From positions 370-64,369 of IMG/VR virus record IMGVR_UViG_3300032332_001463: 64,000 nucleotides of DNA. One strand, given 5' to 3'. Below, one piece after another: positions 35,619 to 53,348 of the stretch; within the stretch, counting starts at the first letter, position 1; each line of letters opens with the position of its first letter. This DNA comes from a virus. The notes under the pieces were generated by a model. That model had not been told where the DNA came from. It saw only the letters and a program-made list of their open reading frames with translations, and ran no database searches. The translations under genes and the position numbers were made by a program.

Positions 35619-36635
35619 ATGACTAATCTATTTAAAAAAGCCGCGATATTCACGGACATACATTTTGGATTGAAATCCAACAGTCAAGTTCATAACGACG
35701 ACTGTTTGAATTTTGTCAAATGGGCCACTGCCCGGGCCAAGTTGGAGGGTTGTGAAACTGCCATGTTTCTTGGAGACTGGCACAACAATAGAGCCAGCAT
35801 CAATATTGTAACACTGAATTACAGCCTTAGGGCACTAGAGCACTTAAATGATAACTTTGATCGTGTTTATTTTATTCCCGGCAACCATGATCTGTATTAT
35901 CGCGATAAACGCGATATCCAATCAGTTGACTGGGCTCGTCACCTCCCGAACATTCAAATTGTTAACGATTGGTTTGCTAGTGGGGATGTGGTTATCGCTC
36001 CTTGGCTTGTTGGGGACGATCACAAGCGAATACCCCGACTATCAGCCAAGTACATGTTTGGGCACTTTGAACTGCCAGGATACCTGATGAACGCCATGGT
36101 GGCCATGCCAGACCATGGCGAAGTGCGCAGAGAACACTTCAACAACTTTGATCATGTGTTTACTGGGCACTTTCACAAGCGACAAACACAGAAAAATATC
36201 ACCTACATTGGCAACTGCTTTCCGCACAACTATGCCGATGCTGGTGACGACGATCGAGGACTTACAATTTTAGAATGGGGTAAAGACCCTGTGTATCATG
36301 CATGGCCTGATCAACCGCGCTATCGTGTGTTCAAGTTAAGTGATGTATTGAATCACACCGAAGCCATGCTGCTGCCAGGTATGCATTGTAGGGTCAACAT
36401 TGATATTGACATCAGCTACGAAGAAGCCACATTTATCAAAGAAACTTTTATTGACACTTATCGTCTTAGAGAGATCAGTTTGATTCCGCAGAAGGAAATT
36501 GATCTTGGCGAGAACATCATGCTGGGCAACATACAGTTTGAAAGTGTTGATCAGATTGTCACCAGCCAGATAACCAACATCACCAGCGACAAGTTCAACT
36601 CAAACCTGCTGCTGGATATCTATAGAAATCTATGA
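35619..36635 (+). CDS. gp47: recombination endonuclease subunit (gp47, Mre11/SbcD-like)
   Basis: DIHFG, GDWH, GNHD, GHFE, GHFH metallophosphoesterase motifs. Confidence 0.92.
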   Translation: MTNLFKKAAIFTDIHFGLKSNSQVHNDDCLNFVKWATARAKLEGCETAMFLGDWHNNRASINIVTLNYSLRALEHLNDNFDRVYFIPGNHDLYYRDKRDIQSVDWARHLPNIQIVNDWFASGDVVIAPWLVGDDHKRIPRLSAKYMFGHFELPGYLMNAMVAMPDHGEVRREHFNNFDHVFTGHFHKRQTQKNITYIGNCFPHNYADAGDDDRGLTILEWGKDPVYHAWPDQPRYRVFKLSDVLNHTEAMLLPGMHCRVNIDIDISYEEATFIKETFIDTYRLREISLIPQKEIDLGENIMLGNIQFESVDQIVTSQITNITSDKFNSNLLLDIYRNL

Positions 36636-38401
36636 TCCGTATCAAGAATTTGACTGTTAAAAATTTCATGAGCGTGGGCAATGTCACGCAGGCTGTGGAC
36701 TTTGACCGCAAGGATCTCACACTGGTACTAGGCGAAAACATTGACCTAGGCGGTGACGATACCGGCAGCAGGAACGGTACTGGCAAGACCACTATCATCA
36801 ATGCACTCAGCTATGCCCTGTATGGTGCTGCACTGACCAACATACGCAAAGACAACTTGATCAACAAAACCAACGGCAAGGGCATGATTGTCACTGTTGA
36901 GTTTGAAAAGGATGGTACCGAATATAGAATTGAGCGTGGTCGCAAGCCCAACACCATGGCCTTTTACGTGGGCAATGTTGAGCGTGAGATTACCGATGAG
37001 AGTCAGGGTGACAGTAGAGAAACGCAAGCAGACATCGAGCGCATGCTGGGCATGAGCTGGGATATGTTCCGGCATATCGTGGCCTTAAACACCTATACCG
37101 AGCCGTTTCTCAGCTTGAAAGCCAACGATCAACGCACTATCATTGAACAACTGCTGGGCATCACAGTACTGAGCGAAAAAGCCGAACGTCTTAAAGAACT
37201 GAATAAGGCCACCAAAGATGCCATACAACAAGAAGAATTCCGCATCAAGGCAGTGACAGATGCCAACAGTCGCATACAAGAGCAAATTGAAAGTTTCAAG
37301 CGCAGACAAGTGCTGTGGCAGAAAAAGCACGACAGCGACCTGGCCTACTTGCAAAAAGGCTACGATGAGTTGAGTCTAATAGATATCGAAGCCGAACTAG
37401 CAGCACACAAGGCCTTGACTGAATACAATCAGCGGGTCAAAGATATATCTGACCTAACCAAGGCCGTTAAACGTGCTGAACTGGACGAGGATCGCGAAGG
37501 CAAAGCAGTCGACCGACTCAAACGCGAGATTGCAGCACTAGAGAATCACCGATGTCATGCATGTGGGCAAGACTTGCACGACGACAATCACGAAGCTGCA
37601 CTGGCCAAGAAACAAAAAGAACTACAAGAAGCTGCACTACAGGTATTAGCCACCGGCAGTCAGTTAATGGAATTGCAAGATGCCTTGACTGAAGTAGGGT
37701 CAGTGGGTGTGCAGCCCCGAGTCTATTACAATCGCGAAAGCGATGCGTTCGAACATCGCAGCAGCATGGCCAATATATTGAGCCAGATTGCCAGCAAGAA
37801 CGCAGAAACAGATCCCTATGCAGAACAGATAGAAGAAATGAGCACACAGGCCCTGGAGGCGGTGACTTACGACACCATTAACGAGTTGGGCAATGTTAAG
37901 GACCATCAAGAATTCCTATTGAAGCTGCTGACCAACAAAGACAGTTTCATACGTAAACGCATTATTGATCAGAATTTGAGTTACTTGAATGCCAGACTGG
38001 GGCAGTACTTGGATCGTATCGGCTTGCCACATGTGGTCAAGTTCAATAACGATCTCAGTGTGAGCATAACTGAATTAGGTAGGGAGTTGGACTTTGACAA
38101 CCTCAGCAGGGGCGAGCGCAATAGACTGATACTAAGTCTGTCGTGGGCGTTCCGTGATGTTTGGGAAAGTTTGTATCAACCTGTTAATCTTTTATTCATT
38201 GATGAGCTGGTAGATTCGGGTATGGATGCATCGGGCGTGGAAAACAGCCTAGCGATCCTAAAACGCATGAGCAGGGAAGCTCATAAGAGCATTTGGCTGG
38301 TTAGCCATAAAGACGAGTTAGCCGGGCGTGTTAACAACATCCTAACTGTGGTTAAAGAAAATGGGTTCACCACCTACAATACCGATGTTGAAACTGTATA
38401 A
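36632..38401 (+). CDS. gp46: recombination ATPase subunit (gp46, Rad50/SbcC-like)
   Basis: NGTGKTT Walker A, coiled coil with CHAC zinc hook, LSRGE signature, LLFIDE Walker B, VSH. Confidence 0.93.
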   Translation: MIRIKNLTVKNFMSVGNVTQAVDFDRKDLTLVLGENIDLGGDDTGSRNGTGKTTIINALSYALYGAALTNIRKDNLINKTNGKGMIVTVEFEKDGTEYRIERGRKPNTMAFYVGNVEREITDESQGDSRETQADIERMLGMSWDMFRHIVALNTYTEPFLSLKANDQRTIIEQLLGITVLSEKAERLKELNKATKDAIQQEEFRIKAVTDANSRIQEQIESFKRRQVLWQKKHDSDLAYLQKGYDELSLIDIEAELAAHKALTEYNQRVKDISDLTKAVKRAELDEDREGKAVDRLKREIAALENHRCHACGQDLHDDNHEAALAKKQKELQEAALQVLATGSQLMELQDALTEVGSVGVQPRVYYNRESDAFEHRSSMANILSQIASKNAETDPYAEQIEEMSTQALEAVTYDTINELGNVKDHQEFLLKLLTNKDSFIRKRIIDQNLSYLNARLGQYLDRIGLPHVVKFNNDLSVSITELGRELDFDNLSRGERNRLILSLSWAFRDVWESLYQPVNLLFIDELVDSGMDASGVENSLAILKRMSREAHKSIWLVSHKDELAGRVNNILTVVKENGFTTYNTDVETV

Positions 38402-38422
38402 ATTTAGCAGGTTAGACTGCAT

Positions 38423-38467
38423 GAGTCATAACTATAATACAGCCTCTTGCTGTATCAATTATGACTT
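38423..38467 (+). promoter_or_regulatory. hairpin sequestering the GIY-YIG start codon, overlapping a late-promoter-like ATAACTA
   Basis: AGTCATAA 38424-31 pairs with TTATGACT 38459-66 (contains the ATG); inner stem ACAGC/GCTGT. Confidence 0.6.
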
Positions 38468-38919
38468 GGTTCTATCAGAATATGCCCGTTGAACAATTAC
38501 CCGAAGACTGTGTGGGTTTTGTGTATCTTATCACAAACGCCGTCACAGATCGCAAGTACGTGGGCAAAAAGCTAGCTAAATTTGCCAAGACCACATATCG
38601 TGTGGTCAAGCAAAAGAACGGGATCAAGAAGAAAAAGAAGATACGCAGCAAGATCGACAGTGACTGGCAAGAATACTACGGCAGCAACGACGAGTTGCGG
38701 CGGGATGTAGAACTGCTAGGGGCAGACAAGTTCCAGAGAGAGATCTTGTACTACTGCTCATCAAAAGCCCTGTGCTCTTACATTGAAGCACGTGAACAAT
38801 TTGACCGCAAGGTCTTAGAGTCACAAAATTACTATAACGGACAAATTAGCGTCCGTGTGCATGGCTCACACATAATAAACAGAATCAATCTCCCACAGAC
38901 ACAAAGTCCAACAAGTTAA
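38461..38919 (+). CDS. GIY-YIG family endonuclease (Seg/EndoII-like, small)
   Basis: GFVYLITN...RKYVGKK, SDWQEYYGS, FQREIL, E..EQ, YYN. Confidence 0.85.
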   Translation: MTWFYQNMPVEQLPEDCVGFVYLITNAVTDRKYVGKKLAKFAKTTYRVVKQKNGIKKKKKIRSKIDSDWQEYYGSNDELRRDVELLGADKFQREILYYCSSKALCSYIEAREQFDRKVLESQNYYNGQISVRVHGSHIINRINLPQTQSPTS

Positions 38920-38940
38920 TACATCATAGGCGCTGTGCAT

Positions 38941-39250
38941 GGCTAGGTCATGCTCCATTGAGGAACGGTGAGATACCCGGTCCGGATCTTGGATGCCAAA
39001 GAAAATTACTAACTTAAGGTAATAAATGATTGAGGCCATGCGAAAAAGATGCAACCTCAGCCTATAGGATTTGGGTCTATTCCGGATCACTAGGGTTCCG
39101 TTGATATGTGAAGCTTGAGTAGGGGGTACCGGTCAACCGCCTCCGCGCCGCAAGGCAATCTCATTAGAATAGATGACTGGGCTACTCGGATGATGCCTTT
39201 TCAATTCACCGTGCATACGGTGAATTATGACCAGTTAATCTGGATGATAC
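38941..39250 (+). ncRNA. candidate large structured non-coding RNA (family not identified)
   Basis: No credible ORF; at least 10 hand-identified helices with G-U pairs on the + strand, a GCAA tetraloop and two crossing long-range pairings. Confidence 0.65.
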
Positions 39251-39275
39251 TAATCCATTAAAGATAAAGAAAACA

Positions 39276-39317
39276 GTTGTGAGCGATAGCGAAACAACAG
39301 ACTTCTGTAAGAAGTCT
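39276..39317. other. twin hairpins at the convergence of + and - transcription units
   Basis: GTTGT-GAGCGATAGCGAA-ACAAC and AGACTTC-TGTAA-GAAGTCT. Confidence 0.5.
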
Positions 39318-39345
39318 TATACAGATACACATTAAATGCAATGGA

Positions 39346-39564
39346 TCAGAAGAAAGGAAGACCGCTTTTCTTTGTGGTATCCATGTTGTCATCGATGATC
39401 TTGGATATCATTTCTCTTTCGCTATTGCTTAGATACATGGTTTCTTCGTAAGAGAGTCCGCCGCGCATGTACCATGCCATCCTGAGTGAGTCTCGTTTTA
39501 GGGCTTTTGATTCTTTATCATAGCCTTCGACCAGGGCCATGATCTCCTCATTGGATAAAGTCAA
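39346..39564 (-). CDS. baseplate hub assembly protein (gp51-like)
   Basis: WYMRGGLSYEE.M.LS..ERE.I; directly downstream of gp26-like gene. Confidence 0.6.
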   Translation of the reverse strand: MTLSNEEIMALVEGYDKESKALKRDSLRMAWYMRGGLSYEETMYLSNSEREMISKIIDDNMDTTKKSGLPFF

Positions 39565-40421
39565 AAGCCGCGCACGAAAAAATTAGCGTAGTCAAATACC
39601 AGTGGTACTTTGTAGTCTGATGTGCATTCATGACACACAGCTGGTTGTGGTGGTACCCCGCCTTCGATGTTGGCTTCGTTGATTCTGTCTCTTACCAATT
39701 GCACTACATTGCTTTTTGCATTTCTATAGAATTCATTGATGTGATTTTTGTCGCTTACCTGCACTCCATCTGCAACTTCAATGTAGTCTGTGGAATCGGT
39801 TACTGTCATCAAGTTGATGTCAATTAATCGGTTCATGCTTTCGGTTATGGCTTGTGACTTGGCTACATCGGTAAGATCGGCATTTTCCAATGCCTGCATC
39901 ATTTTTTGTTCTTCAAAATTCACAGCATTGACCTTGTTTACACCAAAATATGGATTTGGTTTGAGTTTGATTTTTAATCCATCAATTTCCAATACTTTAT
40001 TGTAGTCTGGACTTTTGATAGCAACCAAGCATGTAGATAAATCCATTGCGTGTGTATTGCTTTCGTTGCATGCCGGACACTTGGTTTCAATGTCCATGGT
40101 CTGCCCGTAGCTGGCAATACGTATAGCAATCAACACAGCATCAACATCAATACTGGGCATGTTCCATGCATTTTTGATATTGGGGCAGCAGCTTTGGATA
40201 ACATCAACTACCCCGCTTCCGTTCATGAGTGCGTCCGGAGTTCTAAGAGTGATCTCATCTCGTGTGGTCAAGGGATACACTGGTATTTCGCCATTGGCTG
40301 GTAATTCTAGTGCATTTTCTTCCCAGTATTTCCCGCTACTGGGTAATTTGATATAAATTGCTGGTTGTCTAAAATATTTGGCTAACGGATTAACCGAGTT
40401 TGGTGCAGTAGTGTTTTCCAT
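39561..40421 (-). CDS. gp26: baseplate hub subunit (gp26-like)
   Basis: YFRQPAIYIKLPSSG, DVDAVLIAIRIASYG, CPAC and CHEC zinc motifs. Confidence 0.78.
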   Translation of the reverse strand: MENTTAPNSVNPLAKYFRQPAIYIKLPSSGKYWEENALELPANGEIPVYPLTTRDEITLRTPDALMNGSGVVDVIQSCCPNIKNAWNMPSIDVDAVLIAIRIASYGQTMDIETKCPACNESNTHAMDLSTCLVAIKSPDYNKVLEIDGLKIKLKPNPYFGVNKVNAVNFEEQKMMQALENADLTDVAKSQAITESMNRLIDINLMTVTDSTDYIEVADGVQVSDKNHINEFYRNAKSNVVQLVRDRINEANIEGGVPPQPAVCHECTSDYKVPLVFDYANFFVRGF

Positions 40422-51640: not shown

Positions 51641-51699
51641 GACTCACATGGTGTGAGTTTTATGCGGAAATCCAACCGCGTACGGCCTAGAACGCCGTG
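51641..51699 (+). ncRNA. candidate cis-regulatory three-hairpin 5' leader
   Basis: Three adjacent stems between late motif 51626-32 and SD 51706-11. Confidence 0.55.
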
Positions 51700-51719
51700 T
51701 TTCACAAGGAGAAAATAAA

Positions 51720-53348
51720 ATGGGACGTCCTTTAAGTAAGAAATATTTTGGTAATCGCAATCCAGGCCTAGATGGTGACTTTGGCGCGCAAAATCAAGCA
51801 GGTGATGCAGGCCTAGGCGGTACCGGCATTGCCAGTATTGATGTGACATATCCAGGCGATGGATGGACAACACAGCCTACATACACTGTAGCAATTCCAA
51901 CTTTGCCCGATGGTATTCGTGCTGAAGTAGTACCACACTACCAGGCACTATCAGCAGCAACACTTACCAACGGTAAAGGTTACAACTATCACGACACATT
52001 TGCACTGCTGGGCACATATGGTCCAAACGGCCATGGCAATGGCCAACCAGGTTATGCAAATGCTACAGTGTCAGCTATCACAGCAGTTGGTGTGACCATG
52101 GTCACTGCTGGCGATCATTATGCTGATGGTGACATCTTGGAATATTGTACAGGCCAAGGCGCTAACGTAACTATTCGTGTTAATACTGTTGCCAGTGGCG
52201 TTGACGCACCTGCTGCAAGTTTGACCATCGTAAGTGGCGGTACACGTACAAGTGCAAAGCCAACCGGCACACTGGGATATCAAAATACCCTGGGCGGAAC
52301 TGGTGTTACATTTACACTTGATTGGGGTGTGTACAGCGTTGATGTTGCAGACCCAGGTACCGAAACTGGTGACTATACCACTTTCCCAACTAACCCAGTT
52401 ACGGCATATGGTACAGCGACCGCGTTCTTTACACCTGCAACATTTACATTGACATCGGGGCTAAGAAGTATTACTGTTACCAATCCCGGTACTGGATATG
52501 TTGTTGGATGGGATAGTAACTACATCTGGACTGCTGCAGAACCATTTGTTAACTTTTCTGGCACTGCTTATCAAGCACCTAACTATGATGTTCGTGCTCA
52601 GAGAAATAGTTATGCTGACGTTAATCGCGGCATTTTTGCCTATGGTTACCAAGCCGGAATGGGTCTTGACGACTCTGATGTAGTACTGCCAGTTGATATT
52701 ATCAAACAGCAGTCAAGTCGTCGCTACAAAGTGCGCGAGCGCAAGTGGAAACTATTGACAGCAGCCAATTATGGCACACTGACTGCAAACAATACCAGTG
52801 GTGCTTTTACAATTAGCACACCGCAACCGGCTGGTACATTTGTTGTGGGCGAACTGCTGGTAATCAATGGCACATTGGGTGGTATTGGCAGTTTTAACAA
52901 CTACTATCCTGGCAATGGGTTCCAAATTACAGCCACCAATGGAACCAGCACATTCACGCTAGAGCGCAATGGCAATCCAATCATTACAACAGCTGGGGCT
53001 ATCACTGGCGCAACACTAGCAAGCCAAACCGCGCACGATACTGTAATCGAGCGTTCGGCTCAATTGGTGGGACGTTGGCCTGCTGCACATGATGAAATTG
53101 CTATCATTGCAACAGATAGTAGCTATTCGTTGTACTTTGTTACCAAGCTGACTGCACGTCGTGCCTTGTTGGTACCAGTTGACTACTTCAACGACGAGTG
53201 GCATTTCCCTGCAAATGAACCCGGTGTATGGCCAGAGGGAGTATATCGTTCAGCAGGATGGACAATGAACCCGGCAGTGGTATTTGAAGCACACAATGGC
53301 GAAGAGAAGGTGTTGATTGGCAACTACGACATTTTCAGTGGACCTTAA
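51720..53348 (+). CDS. putative virion structural protein (Gly/Thr-rich)
   Basis: Starts MGRPLSKKYFG; NPGTGY-type beta motifs; late motif upstream, terminator downstream. Confidence 0.65.
   Translation: MGRPLSKKYFGNRNPGLDGDFGAQNQAGDAGLGGTGIASIDVTYPGDGWTTQPTYTVAIPTLPDGIRAEVVPHYQALSAATLTNGKGYNYHDTFALLGTYGPNGHGNGQPGYANATVSAITAVGVTMVTAGDHYADGDILEYCTGQGANVTIRVNTVASGVDAPAASLTIVSGGTRTSAKPTGTLGYQNTLGGTGVTFTLDWGVYSVDVADPGTETGDYTTFPTNPVTAYGTATAFFTPATFTLTSGLRSITVTNPGTGYVVGWDSNYIWTAAEPFVNFSGTAYQAPNYDVRAQRNSYADVNRGIFAYGYQAGMGLDDSDVVLPVDIIKQQSSRRYKVRERKWKLLTAANYGTLTANNTSGAFTISTPQPAGTFVVGELLVINGTLGGIGSFNNYYPGNGFQITATNGTSTFTLERNGNPIITTAGAITGATLASQTAHDTVIERSAQLVGRWPAAHDEIAIIATDSSYSLYFVTKLTARRALLVPVDYFNDEWHFPANEPGVWPEGVYRSAGWTMNPAVVFEAHNGEEKVLIGNYDIFSGP

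What the first reader, a model, noticed from the sequence alone, without database searches (positions are those of the whole stretch)
38920..39260. ~310-nt doubly pseudoknotted candidate RNA directly behind a GIY-YIG nuclease gene
Seen: this gene-dense phage leaves about 430 nt non-coding here, and nearly all of 38941-39250 can be paired on the + strand. Long-range helices are GGTCAT 38946-51/ATGACC 39227-32 and GTCCGGAT 38980-87/ATCTGGAT 39238-45, which cross to form a pseudoknot. TTGAGTAG 39115-22/CTACTCGG 39182-89 closes a junction with GGGG..CGG-TCAA-CCG..CTCC, GCC-GCAA-GGC and TCAT-loop-ATGA. The loop GTCTATT (39075-81) of hairpin GATTTGG/CCGGATC is complementary to AATAGAT (39168-74), a possible kissing interaction. 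Local hairpins are CTC-CATT-GAG, CGG-TGAGATAC-CCG (T-loop-like UGAGA), TTGG-ATG-CCAA, ATTAC/GTAAT, TGAGG/CCTCA, and a perfect 10-bp AATTCACCGT-GCAT-ACGGTGAATT. GGATGAT occurs at the 3' end of two long-range helices (39188-94, 39242-48). G-U pairs and the GNRA loop favour RNA on the nuclease strand. Inference: this is a compact ribozyme-sized ncRNA co-transcribed with a small, Lys-rich GIY-YIG protein, possibly a nuclease-RNA ribonucleoprotein or a phage ribozyme. I cannot assign it to a known family.
Basis: partly seen in the sequence, partly recalled or inferred. Interest (0 to 1): 0.9.

Follow-up and report, generated by a model that had tools for sequence, protein, structure and literature searches.

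The report
Twin-box structured RNA of lake phages
The gene-free gap behind a small nuclease gene of this uncultured freshwater T4-like phage encodes a real, doubly knotted non-coding RNA of about 390 bases that carries one short word twice; its job is unknown, and the nuclease looks like a neighbour rather than a partner.

Summary
Real feature, partly as described. Window 38929-39317 (+) is a non-coding, highly structured RNA. 101 distinct full-length relatives from IMG/VR support 18 helices: 91.2% of cells paired against 83.0% in shuffles, and 56 of 87 pairs change on both sides. Two 7-nt boxes (39188-94, 39242-48) stay identical while changing at least 27 times on a tree. No reader for them was found in cis, in a complete 346-kb genome or in five neighbouring proteins. 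The window RNA matches no Rfam family. Sister loci share its 3' half, and their 5' third is the orphan motif Polynucleobacter-1, RF01718. The GIY-YIG gene belongs to a family that in three cultured phages stands without this RNA. In 2 loci an unrelated PD-(D/E)XK nuclease gene replaces it upstream of the RNA, directly in one. An RNA-nuclease particle is therefore unsupported, and ribozyme activity is untested. The scan has found this RNA before on other DNA.

The parts
38461..38919 (+). Neighbouring gene: stand-alone GIY-YIG nuclease, 152 aa (catalytic domain only, with a Lys-rich beta-hairpin insert)
   Evidence: Pfam PF19835 SegE_GIY-YIG at E 8.5e-32, residues 3-129. phrog_447 at 7.6e-36. 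AlphaFold model with pLDDT 88.7; best PDB fold match is the I-TevI catalytic domain 1mk0/1ln0, prob 0.99, TM 0.66 on the target, E 0.05. Invariant G19, V21, Y22, Y33, G35, R93, E109, E112 and N126 in 29 homologues.
38929..38997 (+). 5' domain of the class A RNA: closing stem 38929-31/38995-97; variable hairpin 38937-41/38949-53; stem 38954-57/38990-93; hairpin 38962-64/81-83 plus 38966-68/77-79 with loop UGAGAUAC
   Evidence: helices 1-4: 100%, 74.6%, 100% and 98.5% of cells paired; 2 of 3, 4 of 5, 3 of 4 and 5 of 6 pairs change on both sides. Helix 2 is low because a subgroup of 26 rows is aligned out of register.
39006..39022 (+). Hairpin with conserved loop UAACUUAAG
   Evidence: helix 5: 95.0% paired, 4 of 5 pairs change on both sides.
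39032..39058 (+). Two-part hairpin 39032-35/55-58 and 39039-42/50-53, loop GAAAAAGA
   Evidence: helices 6 and 7: 99.3% and 97.1% paired. Pair 39032/39058 reads UA 49, GC 39, CG 8.
39068..39088 (+). Hairpin 39068-74/39082-88; its loop 39075-81 is the 5' strand of pseudoknot 1
   Evidence: helix 8: 99.7% paired, 3 pairs change on both sides, two near-invariant U-G pairs.
39089..39115 (+). Almost invariant joining strand; 39100-04 (GUUGA) is the 5' strand of pseudoknot 2
   Evidence: Invariant or nearly invariant columns in A1. Pseudoknot 2 pairing is shown.
39116..39163 (+). Three-way junction: stem 39116-19/39160-63 encloses hairpin 39122-26/39140-44 (its loop 39133-37 UCAAC is the 3' strand of pseudoknot 2) and hairpin 39147-49/39154-56
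   Evidence: helices 11-13: 99.8%, 99.8% and 99.5% paired. Pair 39116/39163 reads UA 51, AU 48; pair 39122/39144 reads GC 76, AU 25. GUUGA/UCAAC, GUUGU/ACAAC, GUCAU/AUGAC, GUCAG/CUGAC and GUUGG/CCAAC all occur.
39168..39174 (+). 3' strand of pseudoknot 1 (pairs with loop 39075-81)
   Evidence: helix 9: 94.7% paired, 5 of 7 pairs change on both sides (39077/39172 reads CG 44, UA 43). My own alignment gave 9 stacked pairs.
39172..39196 (+). Repeat R1: RUGAC, variable stretch, ACUC, then box 1 (39188-94, GGAUGAU)
   Evidence: box 1 equals box 2 in 96 of 101 rows by column. Four of the 5 misses are a 3-nt alignment shift; one (L102) is real.
39203..39226 (+). Near-invariant 10-bp hairpin between the two repeats
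   Evidence: helix 15: 93.2% paired. Class B carries a different hairpin sequence at the same place, with compensatory changes. L142 has CCCU/AGGG for CCGU/ACGG.
39226..39250 (+). Repeat R2: RUGAC, variable stretch, AUCU, then box 2 (39242-48, GGAUGAU)
   Evidence: A possible long-range helix 38980-86/39239-45 overlaps box letters 1-4 and is inconclusive.
39251..39275 (+). A-rich spacer, variable in length and sequence
   Evidence: Alignment A1, columns about 455-497.
39276..39298 (+). Tail hairpin with a YGA/GAA internal loop, a 2-bp inner stem and a GNRA-like loop
   Evidence: My alignment: 6 stacked pairs, all varying. In A1 the outer stem is misaligned (31.7% paired) and the inner stem is 94.6% paired. 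The same hairpin follows class B RNAs and the unrelated RNA-like stretch of L012, so it may belong to the operon end rather than to the RNA core.
39299..39317 (+). Terminal 8-bp hairpin, terminator-like when read on the - strand
   Evidence: helix 18: 91.9% paired, 7 of 8 pairs change on both sides. The scan calls it a terminator-like site on the - strand only.

Best explanation
SHOWN: window 38929-39250, with a tail to 39317, encodes a free-standing structured non-coding RNA on the + strand. I call it the class A form of the 'twin-box' RNA of uncultured freshwater T4-like phages. It sits at a fixed syntenic place, at the end of the gp47-gp46-(small nuclease) block, facing the baseplate genes. 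It has a 5' domain, three hairpins, and a core in which a hairpin loop pairs with a distant strand (pseudoknot 1). A near-invariant joining strand pairs with the loop of a hairpin inside a three-way junction (pseudoknot 2). Two repeats then flank a near-invariant hairpin, and each repeat ends in the same 7-nt box. INFERRED: the knotted core is a rigid scaffold whose job is to present the two boxes side by side to a two-fold reader outside the RNA. I think the likeliest reader is a nucleic acid read by base pairing, with the boxes acting as two identical seed-like segments. The changes are mostly transitions (G/A at letters 1 and 5, U/C at letter 4). Both boxes follow each other through at least 27 changes, as expected if both track one fast-changing partner. 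The GIY-YIG nuclease is a neighbour in the same operon, not a subunit.
For: Conservation: nhmmer finds the element in 186 of 201 sources, 127 of them full length and 101 distinct, with median identity to the window of 74%. Structure: 87 pairs in 18 helices; 91.2% of cells paired against 83.0% in shuffles (0 of 500 reach it); 56 pairs change on both sides against 37.5; partners slid by 1-3 columns give 36-48%. Pseudoknot 2: 96 of 108 distinct local sequences pair at all 5 positions, with 5 different complementary letter sets across the two classes. Non-coding. Strand: G-U pairs and fold z-scores. Synteny is shown. Twin boxes: identical in 96 of 101 rows, effectively 100 of 101; on a FastTree built without those columns, letter 1 changes 19 or 20 times, letter 5 changes 8 or 9 times, letter 7 changes 4 times, and the whole word changes 27 times. 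The same flanking variable stretches occur with four different words. Separable from the nuclease. RNA-library contigs of 4 runs from 4 studies cover the GIY-YIG gene and the RNA.
Against: No reader was found. The complement of a locus's own box has no fixed place within 4 kb. It is not enriched in the 64-kb window (3 and 3 occurrences against about 4.6 and 4.2 expected). No twin complement exists in the complete 346,856-bp genome G001. No inverted pair of the word recurs in 1.58 Mb of held loci. If the partner carried U or G opposite the variable letters, wobble pairing would remove the need for the boxes to change together, so base pairing alone does not explain the identity. Recombination could inflate the count of independent changes. 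Letters 1-4 of box 2 may instead pair inside the RNA with 38980-83. All expression evidence is assembled contigs, which show neither ends nor strand. The function is inferred from anatomy only.
Confidence: 0.55

Rival explanations
1. The RNA is a partner or guide of the nuclease. A domain-only GIY-YIG enzyme would get its target specificity from the RNA, with the two identical boxes guiding a dimeric enzyme to a palindromic or repeated site.
For: The protein lacks the DNA-binding domain of Seg and I-TevI enzymes: 152 aa, with Pfam covering residues 3-129. In 89 of 120 RNA-selected loci the GIY-YIG gene ends within 110 nt upstream of the RNA. In the two loci without GIY-YIG, another small nuclease gene (PDDEXK_15, PF24608, E 1.1e-24 in L142) stands upstream. 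Two identical boxes would suit a symmetric enzyme.
Against: The family (phrog_447) is in 302 cultured-phage records. In the 3 I opened, the gap behind the gene is 148, 0 and 87 nt, and nhmmer finds no RNA. L039 and L054 have the gene followed directly by a coding gene. In 21 of 120 loci, 0.17-2.1 kb of other genes separate the gene and the RNA. Two unrelated nuclease folds can hardly bind one unchanged scaffold. No column of GIY-YIG, gp46, gp47, orf72 or the baseplate protein predicts a box letter better than 0.86. No target site was found.
Confidence: 0.06
2. The RNA is a ribozyme, self-cleaving or otherwise catalytic. It might, for example, process itself out of the operon transcript or cut at the two boxes.
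For: Its size, its two pseudoknots around a junction and its long invariant strands (39089-39115; the loop 39127-39139) resemble catalytic cores.
Against: No Rfam ribozyme family matches, even at E up to 10. No back-joined or cut forms appear among the RNA contigs, although contigs cannot show them. Nothing was tested at the bench.
Confidence: 0.08
3. It is a purely cis-acting 3' element of the early operon, giving stability, termination or protection of the nuclease mRNA, with no action in trans.
For: It lies at the 3' end of a + strand gene block, facing convergent genes. RNA contigs bridge the ORF and the RNA. The tail hairpins are shared with unrelated upstream RNAs.
Against: A 320-nt double pseudoknot with concerted twin boxes is far more than end protection needs. 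The element is kept unchanged whatever gene lies upstream: GIY-YIG, unannotated ORFs or a PD-(D/E)XK nuclease.
Confidence: 0.12
4. It is a DNA-level element, such as a replication origin or recombination site, with a hairpin flanked by direct repeats (iterons) bound by a protein.
For: The arrangement is direct repeats on both sides of a perfect inverted repeat, with repeats that differ between phages but match within a phage.
Against: G-U pairs that would be A-C on the other strand are conserved throughout. The spacing of the boxes varies with the linker, which is 5 to 14 nt, so there is no fixed helical phase. The covariation is RNA-like across 18 helices.
Confidence: 0.03

Closest known systems
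Polynucleobacter-1 RNA motif (Rfam RF01718). Weinberg et al. 2010, Genome Biol 11:R31, PMC2864571; I saw only its table row: 'Burkholderiales, fresh water/estuary'.
   Same: It occupies the same slot directly behind the same GIY-YIG gene in sister phages: 12 of 12 class B loci and 6 more, at 77-118 bits against a threshold of 37. Those RNAs continue into a 3' part that is homologous to the window's 3' half (positions 176/203-405 of the class A profile, E 1e-9 to 3e-26). That part has the same two pseudoknots, three-way junction, twin boxes and tail. Both are orphans without a known function; the only paper in the library naming the motif is the 2010 survey.
   Different: The window RNA does not match RF01718 at all: no hit at the gathering score or at E up to 10, and 0 of 8 class A loci match. 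Its 5' 140 nt have a different helix layout. The Rfam model covers only 141 nt and none of the shared twin-box part.
Large ornate orphan RNAs of bacteria and phages (GOLLD, ROOL, OLE, raiA). bioRxiv 10.1101/2024.12.08.627333; I saw only the search listing and the start of the abstract. Other details are recalled.
   Same: These are also large, intricately folded RNAs with multiple pseudoknots. They were found by comparative genomics, often in phage DNA, with no known function.
   Different: There is no sequence or model match. The window RNA is smaller. Nothing shows that it forms multimers. Those RNAs are not reported, to my recollection, to carry twin co-varying boxes.
Guide RNAs of transposon-encoded nucleases (OMEGA: TnpB/IscB omega RNA). 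PMC10055086 and PMC13565253; I saw only the search listings and starts of the abstracts.
   Same: Both are structured RNAs of a few hundred nt encoded next to a small nuclease gene, with a short variable segment.
   Different: Here the nuclease family lives without the RNA, and the RNA lives next to an unrelated nuclease. No target complementary to the boxes was found. The variable words lie inside the RNA and come in two identical copies, not at one end next to a transposon boundary.
Seed-pairing small RNAs of bacteria with several seed regions (recalled; no paper read).
   Same: Both have short single-stranded words of 7-10 nt, an A-rich stretch and terminal hairpins at the 3' end.
   Different: The scaffold here is much larger. 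There is no known target, and no evidence for a chaperone.

Membership tests
Polynucleobacter-1 (Rfam RF01718) | Covariance-model score at or above the gathering score (37 bits) | tested here: not met
   No match in the window at the gathering score or at E up to 10 in 38350-39450. 0 of 8 class A loci match, against 12 of 12 class B loci.
Polynucleobacter-1 (Rfam RF01718), extended form | Shares the uncatalogued 3' part (pseudoknots, junction, twin boxes) with RNAs that begin with RF01718 | tested here: met
   40 loci match only positions 176/203-405 of the class A profile. The same pairings are kept through different letters.
   No RNase P family matches at E up to 10. 38981-83 pair locally with 38962-64 (98.5% paired). 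The long-range alternative is only marginally above shuffles.
Group I intron | Match to the intron model; interruption of a host gene with exons on both sides | tested here: not met
   No Rfam match. gp46 ends with its own stop at 38401, and the next gene downstream lies on the other strand.
tRNA / tmRNA | ARAGORN detection | tested here: not met
   0 genes found in 38300-39500.
GIY-YIG nuclease superfamily (the neighbouring protein) | Profile match, GIY and YIG motifs, conserved Arg/Glu/Asn, and the alpha/beta catalytic fold | tested here: met
   PF19835 at E 8.5e-32. Motif residues are invariant in 29 homologues. The best PDB fold is the I-TevI catalytic domain, prob 0.99. Foldseek E is only 0.05, and a sequence search of the PDB gave nothing below E 0.1.
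RNA-guided nuclease system (OMEGA-like) | Obligate pairing of the nuclease gene with the RNA | tested here: not met
   The gene occurs without the RNA in 3 of 3 cultured phages opened and in L039/L054. The RNA occurs without the gene in L142/L157.
RNA-guided nuclease system (OMEGA-like) | Variable segment complementary to a target | tested here: inconclusive
   No target was found in cis, in the window, in one complete genome or as inverted pairs. Host genomes are unknown.
Type III toxin-antitoxin RNA (ToxI-like; features recalled) | Tandem repeats of a whole unit directly upstream of the toxin gene | tested here: not met
   Only two partial repeats with different middles are present, and they lie downstream of the gene.
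Known self-cleaving ribozymes in Rfam | Model match | tested here: not met
   None matches at E up to 10. Catalysis itself cannot be tested here.

The most novel reading that the evidence does not exclude
The twin boxes are two identical guide segments. The knotted scaffold would recruit whichever small nuclease is encoded upstream, or a host enzyme, to a symmetric or repeated nucleic-acid target that evolves quickly, such as a competitor phage or a host defence locus. That would be an RNA-guided system built on GIY-YIG or PD-(D/E)XK nucleases, unrelated to CRISPR or OMEGA.
Probability: 0.04. Interest if true: 0.92.

Novelty: new variant of a known kind. Interest (0 to 1): 0.6.

Why it matters
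This is one of the larger and better supported orphan RNA folds in phage DNA. It is about 390 nt long, has two pseudoknots and is present in well over a hundred uncultured lake phages. It shows that the orphan Rfam motif Polynucleobacter-1 is only the first third of a longer RNA, and that this longer RNA has a sibling with a different 5' domain. The two boxes stay identical while changing again and again. That is a clear, testable signature of a two-fold reader. For annotation, it replaces a 'hypothetical gap' with an RNA gene and warns against calling the small ORFs inside it.

Tried and rejected
Known RNA families: Rfam at the gathering score on the whole window gave only freshwater-2, elsewhere in the window. 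At E up to 10 on 38350-39450 the only hit was a chance RybB-like match at 39361-39418. ARAGORN found nothing.

Cultured phages: blastn of 38400-39400 against 50,697 phage records gave no match.

Coding readings: the internal ORFs are not conserved. I also read R1 as a mini-ORF, AUG to a UGA/UAA inside the box. The variable stretch is 8-10 nt long, so the frame is not kept, and I dropped the idea.

Pairing of the two variable stretches, and hairpins that would put each box in a loop: in a matched-versus-shuffled test, the R1 stretch against the letters after box 1 scored z 3.7. The R2 equivalent scored z -1.6, and R1 stretch against R2 stretch scored z -0.1. Only the first is a possible stem, and my regex boundaries were uneven.

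Partner for the boxes inside the RNA: no column shows Watson-Crick covariation with them.

Search of a 6.9-Mb MAG that holds two phage-like contigs with the RNA: my pattern was too degenerate (34 and 35 matches, mostly coding GAT-GAT) and tells nothing. The 19-mer scan of genome contigs gave 15 hits, about what chance gives. Only L206, L210 (full class A) and L203 (3' half) are real.

Literature: searches for GIY-YIG with structured RNA and phage (8 papers), for homing endonuclease with ncRNA terms (15 papers) and for 'Polynucleobacter-1' (1 paper) found no description of this RNA. Two catalogue papers do not mention GIY-YIG in their main text. Their supplements, which I could not see, might list the element.

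RNA runs: no depth at 39218-39318 in any of the 4 runs, and whole contigs end at 39183, 39187 and 39220. I laid no DNA run for comparison, and contigs break at variable sites, so I draw nothing from this. PDB sequence search of the protein gave nothing below E 0.1.
Full report
WHAT IS THERE. The window is a 64-kb piece of an IMG/VR virus record of 64,369 bases, with estimated completeness 18%. Around the finding the + strand carries gp47-like (35619-36635) and gp46-like (36632-38401) recombination nuclease genes. A 152-aa GIY-YIG gene (38461-38919) follows. On the - strand lie a 72-aa ORF (39346-39564) and a T4 baseplate protein gene (39561-40421). Between 38919 and 39346 there are 426 nt without a conserved ORF.

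IS IT MORE THAN CHANCE? The + strand of 38920-39260 folds to -105 kcal/mol, z -2.21 against dinucleotide shuffles. The - strand gives z -0.85. The decisive evidence is comparative.
- A search with the GIY-YIG protein found at least 599 relatives in IMG/VR, of which 80 were kept.
- A 24-nt motif of the RNA found at least 120 contigs.
- An nhmmer profile hits 186 of 201 sources. Of these, 127 are full length and 101 are distinct, with median identity to the window of 74%.

On the tool alignment A1 (101 rows) my model has 87 pairs in 18 helices. It shows 91.2% paired cells against 83.0% in column shuffles (0 of 500 reach it). 56 pairs change on both sides, against 37.5 in shuffles. Partners slid by 1 to 3 columns give 36-48%. 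Two helices score low in A1. The variable 5' hairpin gives 74.6% because 26 rows are out of register. The outer stem of the first tail hairpin gives 31.7% because it is misaligned. In my own MAFFT alignment that stem had six stacked, all-varying pairs.

ANATOMY. The parts list gives coordinates. Two pseudoknots stand out.
- Pseudoknot 2 joins the near-invariant strand 39100-04 to the loop 39133-37. It does not vary within class A, but across both classes five complementary letter sets occur. 96 of 108 distinct local sequences pair at all five positions, and 8 of the 12 misses are rows where my regex anchored on the wrong CCG.

Eight of 14 elements hold. Five fail. As a set they are no better than shuffles: 78.6 against 78.3% paired, and 4 pairs changed on both sides against 4.8. 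TGAG 39116-19 pairs with CUCA 39160-63 (UA 51, AU 48), not with 39184-87. GTCCGGAT/ATCTGGAT is inconclusive. It is 93.9% paired against 92.5% shuffled (1 of 500), with a covariation score of 0.250 against 0.220 (0 of 500). However, it has 22 C-A cells at 38983/39242 and competes with the local stem 38962-64/38981-83, which is 98.5% paired.

THE TWIN BOXES. Two repeats, R1 (39172-96) and R2 (39226-50), flank the 10-bp hairpin. Each has the form RUGAC, a variable stretch, four fixed letters, then a 7-nt box: GGAUGAU at 39188-94 and at 39242-48. Mutual information first showed the two boxes changing in parallel rather than complementarily (39188/39242: AA 55, GG 42).

By column, the boxes are identical in 96 of 101 rows. 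Four of the five misses are a 3-nt alignment shift; the same loci show identical boxes. One miss, L102, is real. A regex that requires identity finds eight different words in 162 sources; being conditional on identity, that count says nothing about the rate of identity.

On a FastTree built without these columns, letter 1 changes 19 or 20 times, letter 5 changes 8 or 9 times, letter 7 changes 4 times, and the word changes 27 times. The same flanking variable stretches occur with four different words. Import of whole modules by recombination therefore cannot explain all of it, though it may inflate the count.

WHO READS THE BOXES? I found no answer.
- No column inside the RNA covaries with them in the Watson-Crick sense.
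- The complement of a locus's own word has no fixed place within 4 kb.
- The word and its complement are not enriched in the window.
- The complete 346,856-bp genome G001 has the twin arrangement once (the RNA itself) and no twin complement.
- Inverted pairs of the word do not recur in 1.58 Mb of loci.
- No column of GIY-YIG, gp46, gp47, orf72 or the baseplate protein predicts a box letter with accuracy above 0.86. For the fast-flipping letter 1 the best is 0.80. The best columns are hypervariable ones, which is what shared ancestry gives.

RELATION TO THE NUCLEASE. The protein is a true GIY-YIG catalytic domain. Its family (phrog_447) occurs in 302 cultured-phage records, mostly cyanophages, with the best match being Methylophilales phage Melnitz at 48.9% identity. 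I opened three of these records: Melnitz-3, Acidovorax phage ACP17 and Synechococcus phage S-SRM01. The next gene follows after 148, 0 and 87 nt, and neither RNA profile hits.

Among the 80 protein-selected loci the breakdown is as follows.
- 23 have class A hits.
- 42 have partial or class B hits.
- 15 have none. Of these, 4 carry RF01718, L039 and L054 have a coding gene directly behind GIY-YIG, and most of the others are cut by the contig end.

Among the 120 RNA-selected loci the breakdown is as follows.
- In 89 the GIY-YIG gene ends within 110 nt upstream.
- In 18 it ends 170-1100 nt upstream.
- In 3 it ends 1.1-2.1 kb upstream.
- 5 hold too little upstream sequence.
- 3 lack the RNA's 5' end.
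- 2 (L142, L157) have no GIY-YIG gene.

The inserted ORFs of L010 and L179 have no Pfam match. In L142 a PDDEXK_15 nuclease gene (PF24608, E 1.1e-24) ends 7 nt before an intact RNA. In L157 an ORF that by eye is its close homologue (I did not scan it against Pfam) lies one gene further upstream. A small nuclease gene therefore tends to precede the RNA, but two unrelated folds precede the same unchanged scaffold. I read this as shared operon position, not a complex.

KNOWN RELATIVES. Earlier notes of this scan named Polynucleobacter-1, and I tested that. RF01718 matches full length (77-118 bits, threshold 37) directly behind the GIY-YIG gene in 12 of 12 class B loci and in 6 further loci. It matches 0 of 8 class A loci and not the window. 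Class B RNAs then continue into a part homologous to the window's 3' half. The family is thus modular: a 5' domain of type A or of type Polynucleobacter-1, then a shared knotted core with twin boxes, then tail hairpins. The only paper in the library that names the motif lists it in a table as a candidate RNA from Burkholderiales and fresh water.

EXPRESSION AND HABITAT. Thirteen DNA runs other than the possible source hold 33-77% of the sampled words. Eleven of them, from nine studies other than the possible source's own, are all labelled aquatic, lake or freshwater metagenomes. Four metatranscriptome runs from four studies yield contigs of relatives over the GIY-YIG gene and the RNA. Two of those contigs bridge the ORF end and the RNA's 5' half. 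Contigs show neither strand nor ends, and DNA may be present in such libraries.

MECHANISM. Shown: a folded + strand RNA gene with a rigid double-pseudoknot core and two identical short words. Inferred: the core presents the words to a two-fold outside reader, most likely a nucleic acid read by base pairing, that changes quickly. Base pairing fits the excess of transitions but does not by itself explain why the boxes must stay identical. I put about 0.55 on the whole statement and above 0.95 on the 'real structured RNA' part.

NOVELTY. The class A RNA is absent from Rfam 15 and from the papers I could search. It is a sibling of an orphan motif, so I rate it a new variant of a known kind. The scan has reported this RNA before on other genomes (508 notes hold the search words).

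Noticed in passing
window 51642-51722 (+): Full-length match to the Rfam motif freshwater-2 (RF02980), 71.6 bits against a threshold of 49.9.
   Followed up: no
L012:3427-3840: In the same slot (behind the GIY-YIG gene, before the same two tail hairpins) this contig has a different gene-free stretch of about 400 nt. It has no twin boxes and no Rfam match. The slot may host several unrelated RNAs.
   Followed up: partly
L142:2293-2805 (-) and L157:1011-1517 (-): A PD-(D/E)XK nuclease gene replaces the GIY-YIG gene upstream of the RNA. The L142 protein matches PF24608 PDDEXK_15 at E 1.1e-24. The L157 protein resembles it by eye only. In L157 a 261-aa ORF lies between the nuclease gene and the RNA.
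   Followed up: partly
Class B loci L031, L029, L051, L023, L041, L048, inside the three-way junction (alignment): These loci carry an insertion of 30-60 nt made of tandem 10-11-nt units (ATTATAG-like) at the position where class A has the small GCC/GGC hairpin.
   Followed up: no
L206 and L210 (two contigs of 148 and 183 kb of one MAG labelled Haliscomenobacter sp.): Both contigs hold a full-length class A RNA (E 2e-123 and 1e-118). They are probably phage contigs binned into a bacterial MAG, or a hint to the host.
   Followed up: partly
L010:3440-4453, L179:2611-4443: ORFs of 264-337 aa without any Pfam match are inserted between the GIY-YIG gene and the RNA. By eye, two have a GDSL/SGNH-like N-terminal motif.
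   Followed up: partly
window 39276-39298: Tail hairpin with a conserved YGA/GAA internal loop, a 2-bp inner stem and a GNRA-like loop. It is shared by class A, class B and L012, and might be a protein-binding or docking module at the operon end.
   Followed up: partly
window 38500-38660 (residues about 40-66 of the GIY-YIG protein): The Lys-rich segment (KQKNGIKKKKKIRSK) forms a long beta-hairpin in the model (strands 40-50 and 56-66). By eye, the much shorter I-TevI catalytic domain (94-97 residues) seems to lack it. The conserved K and N residues in it are invariant in the 29 homologues.
   Followed up: no
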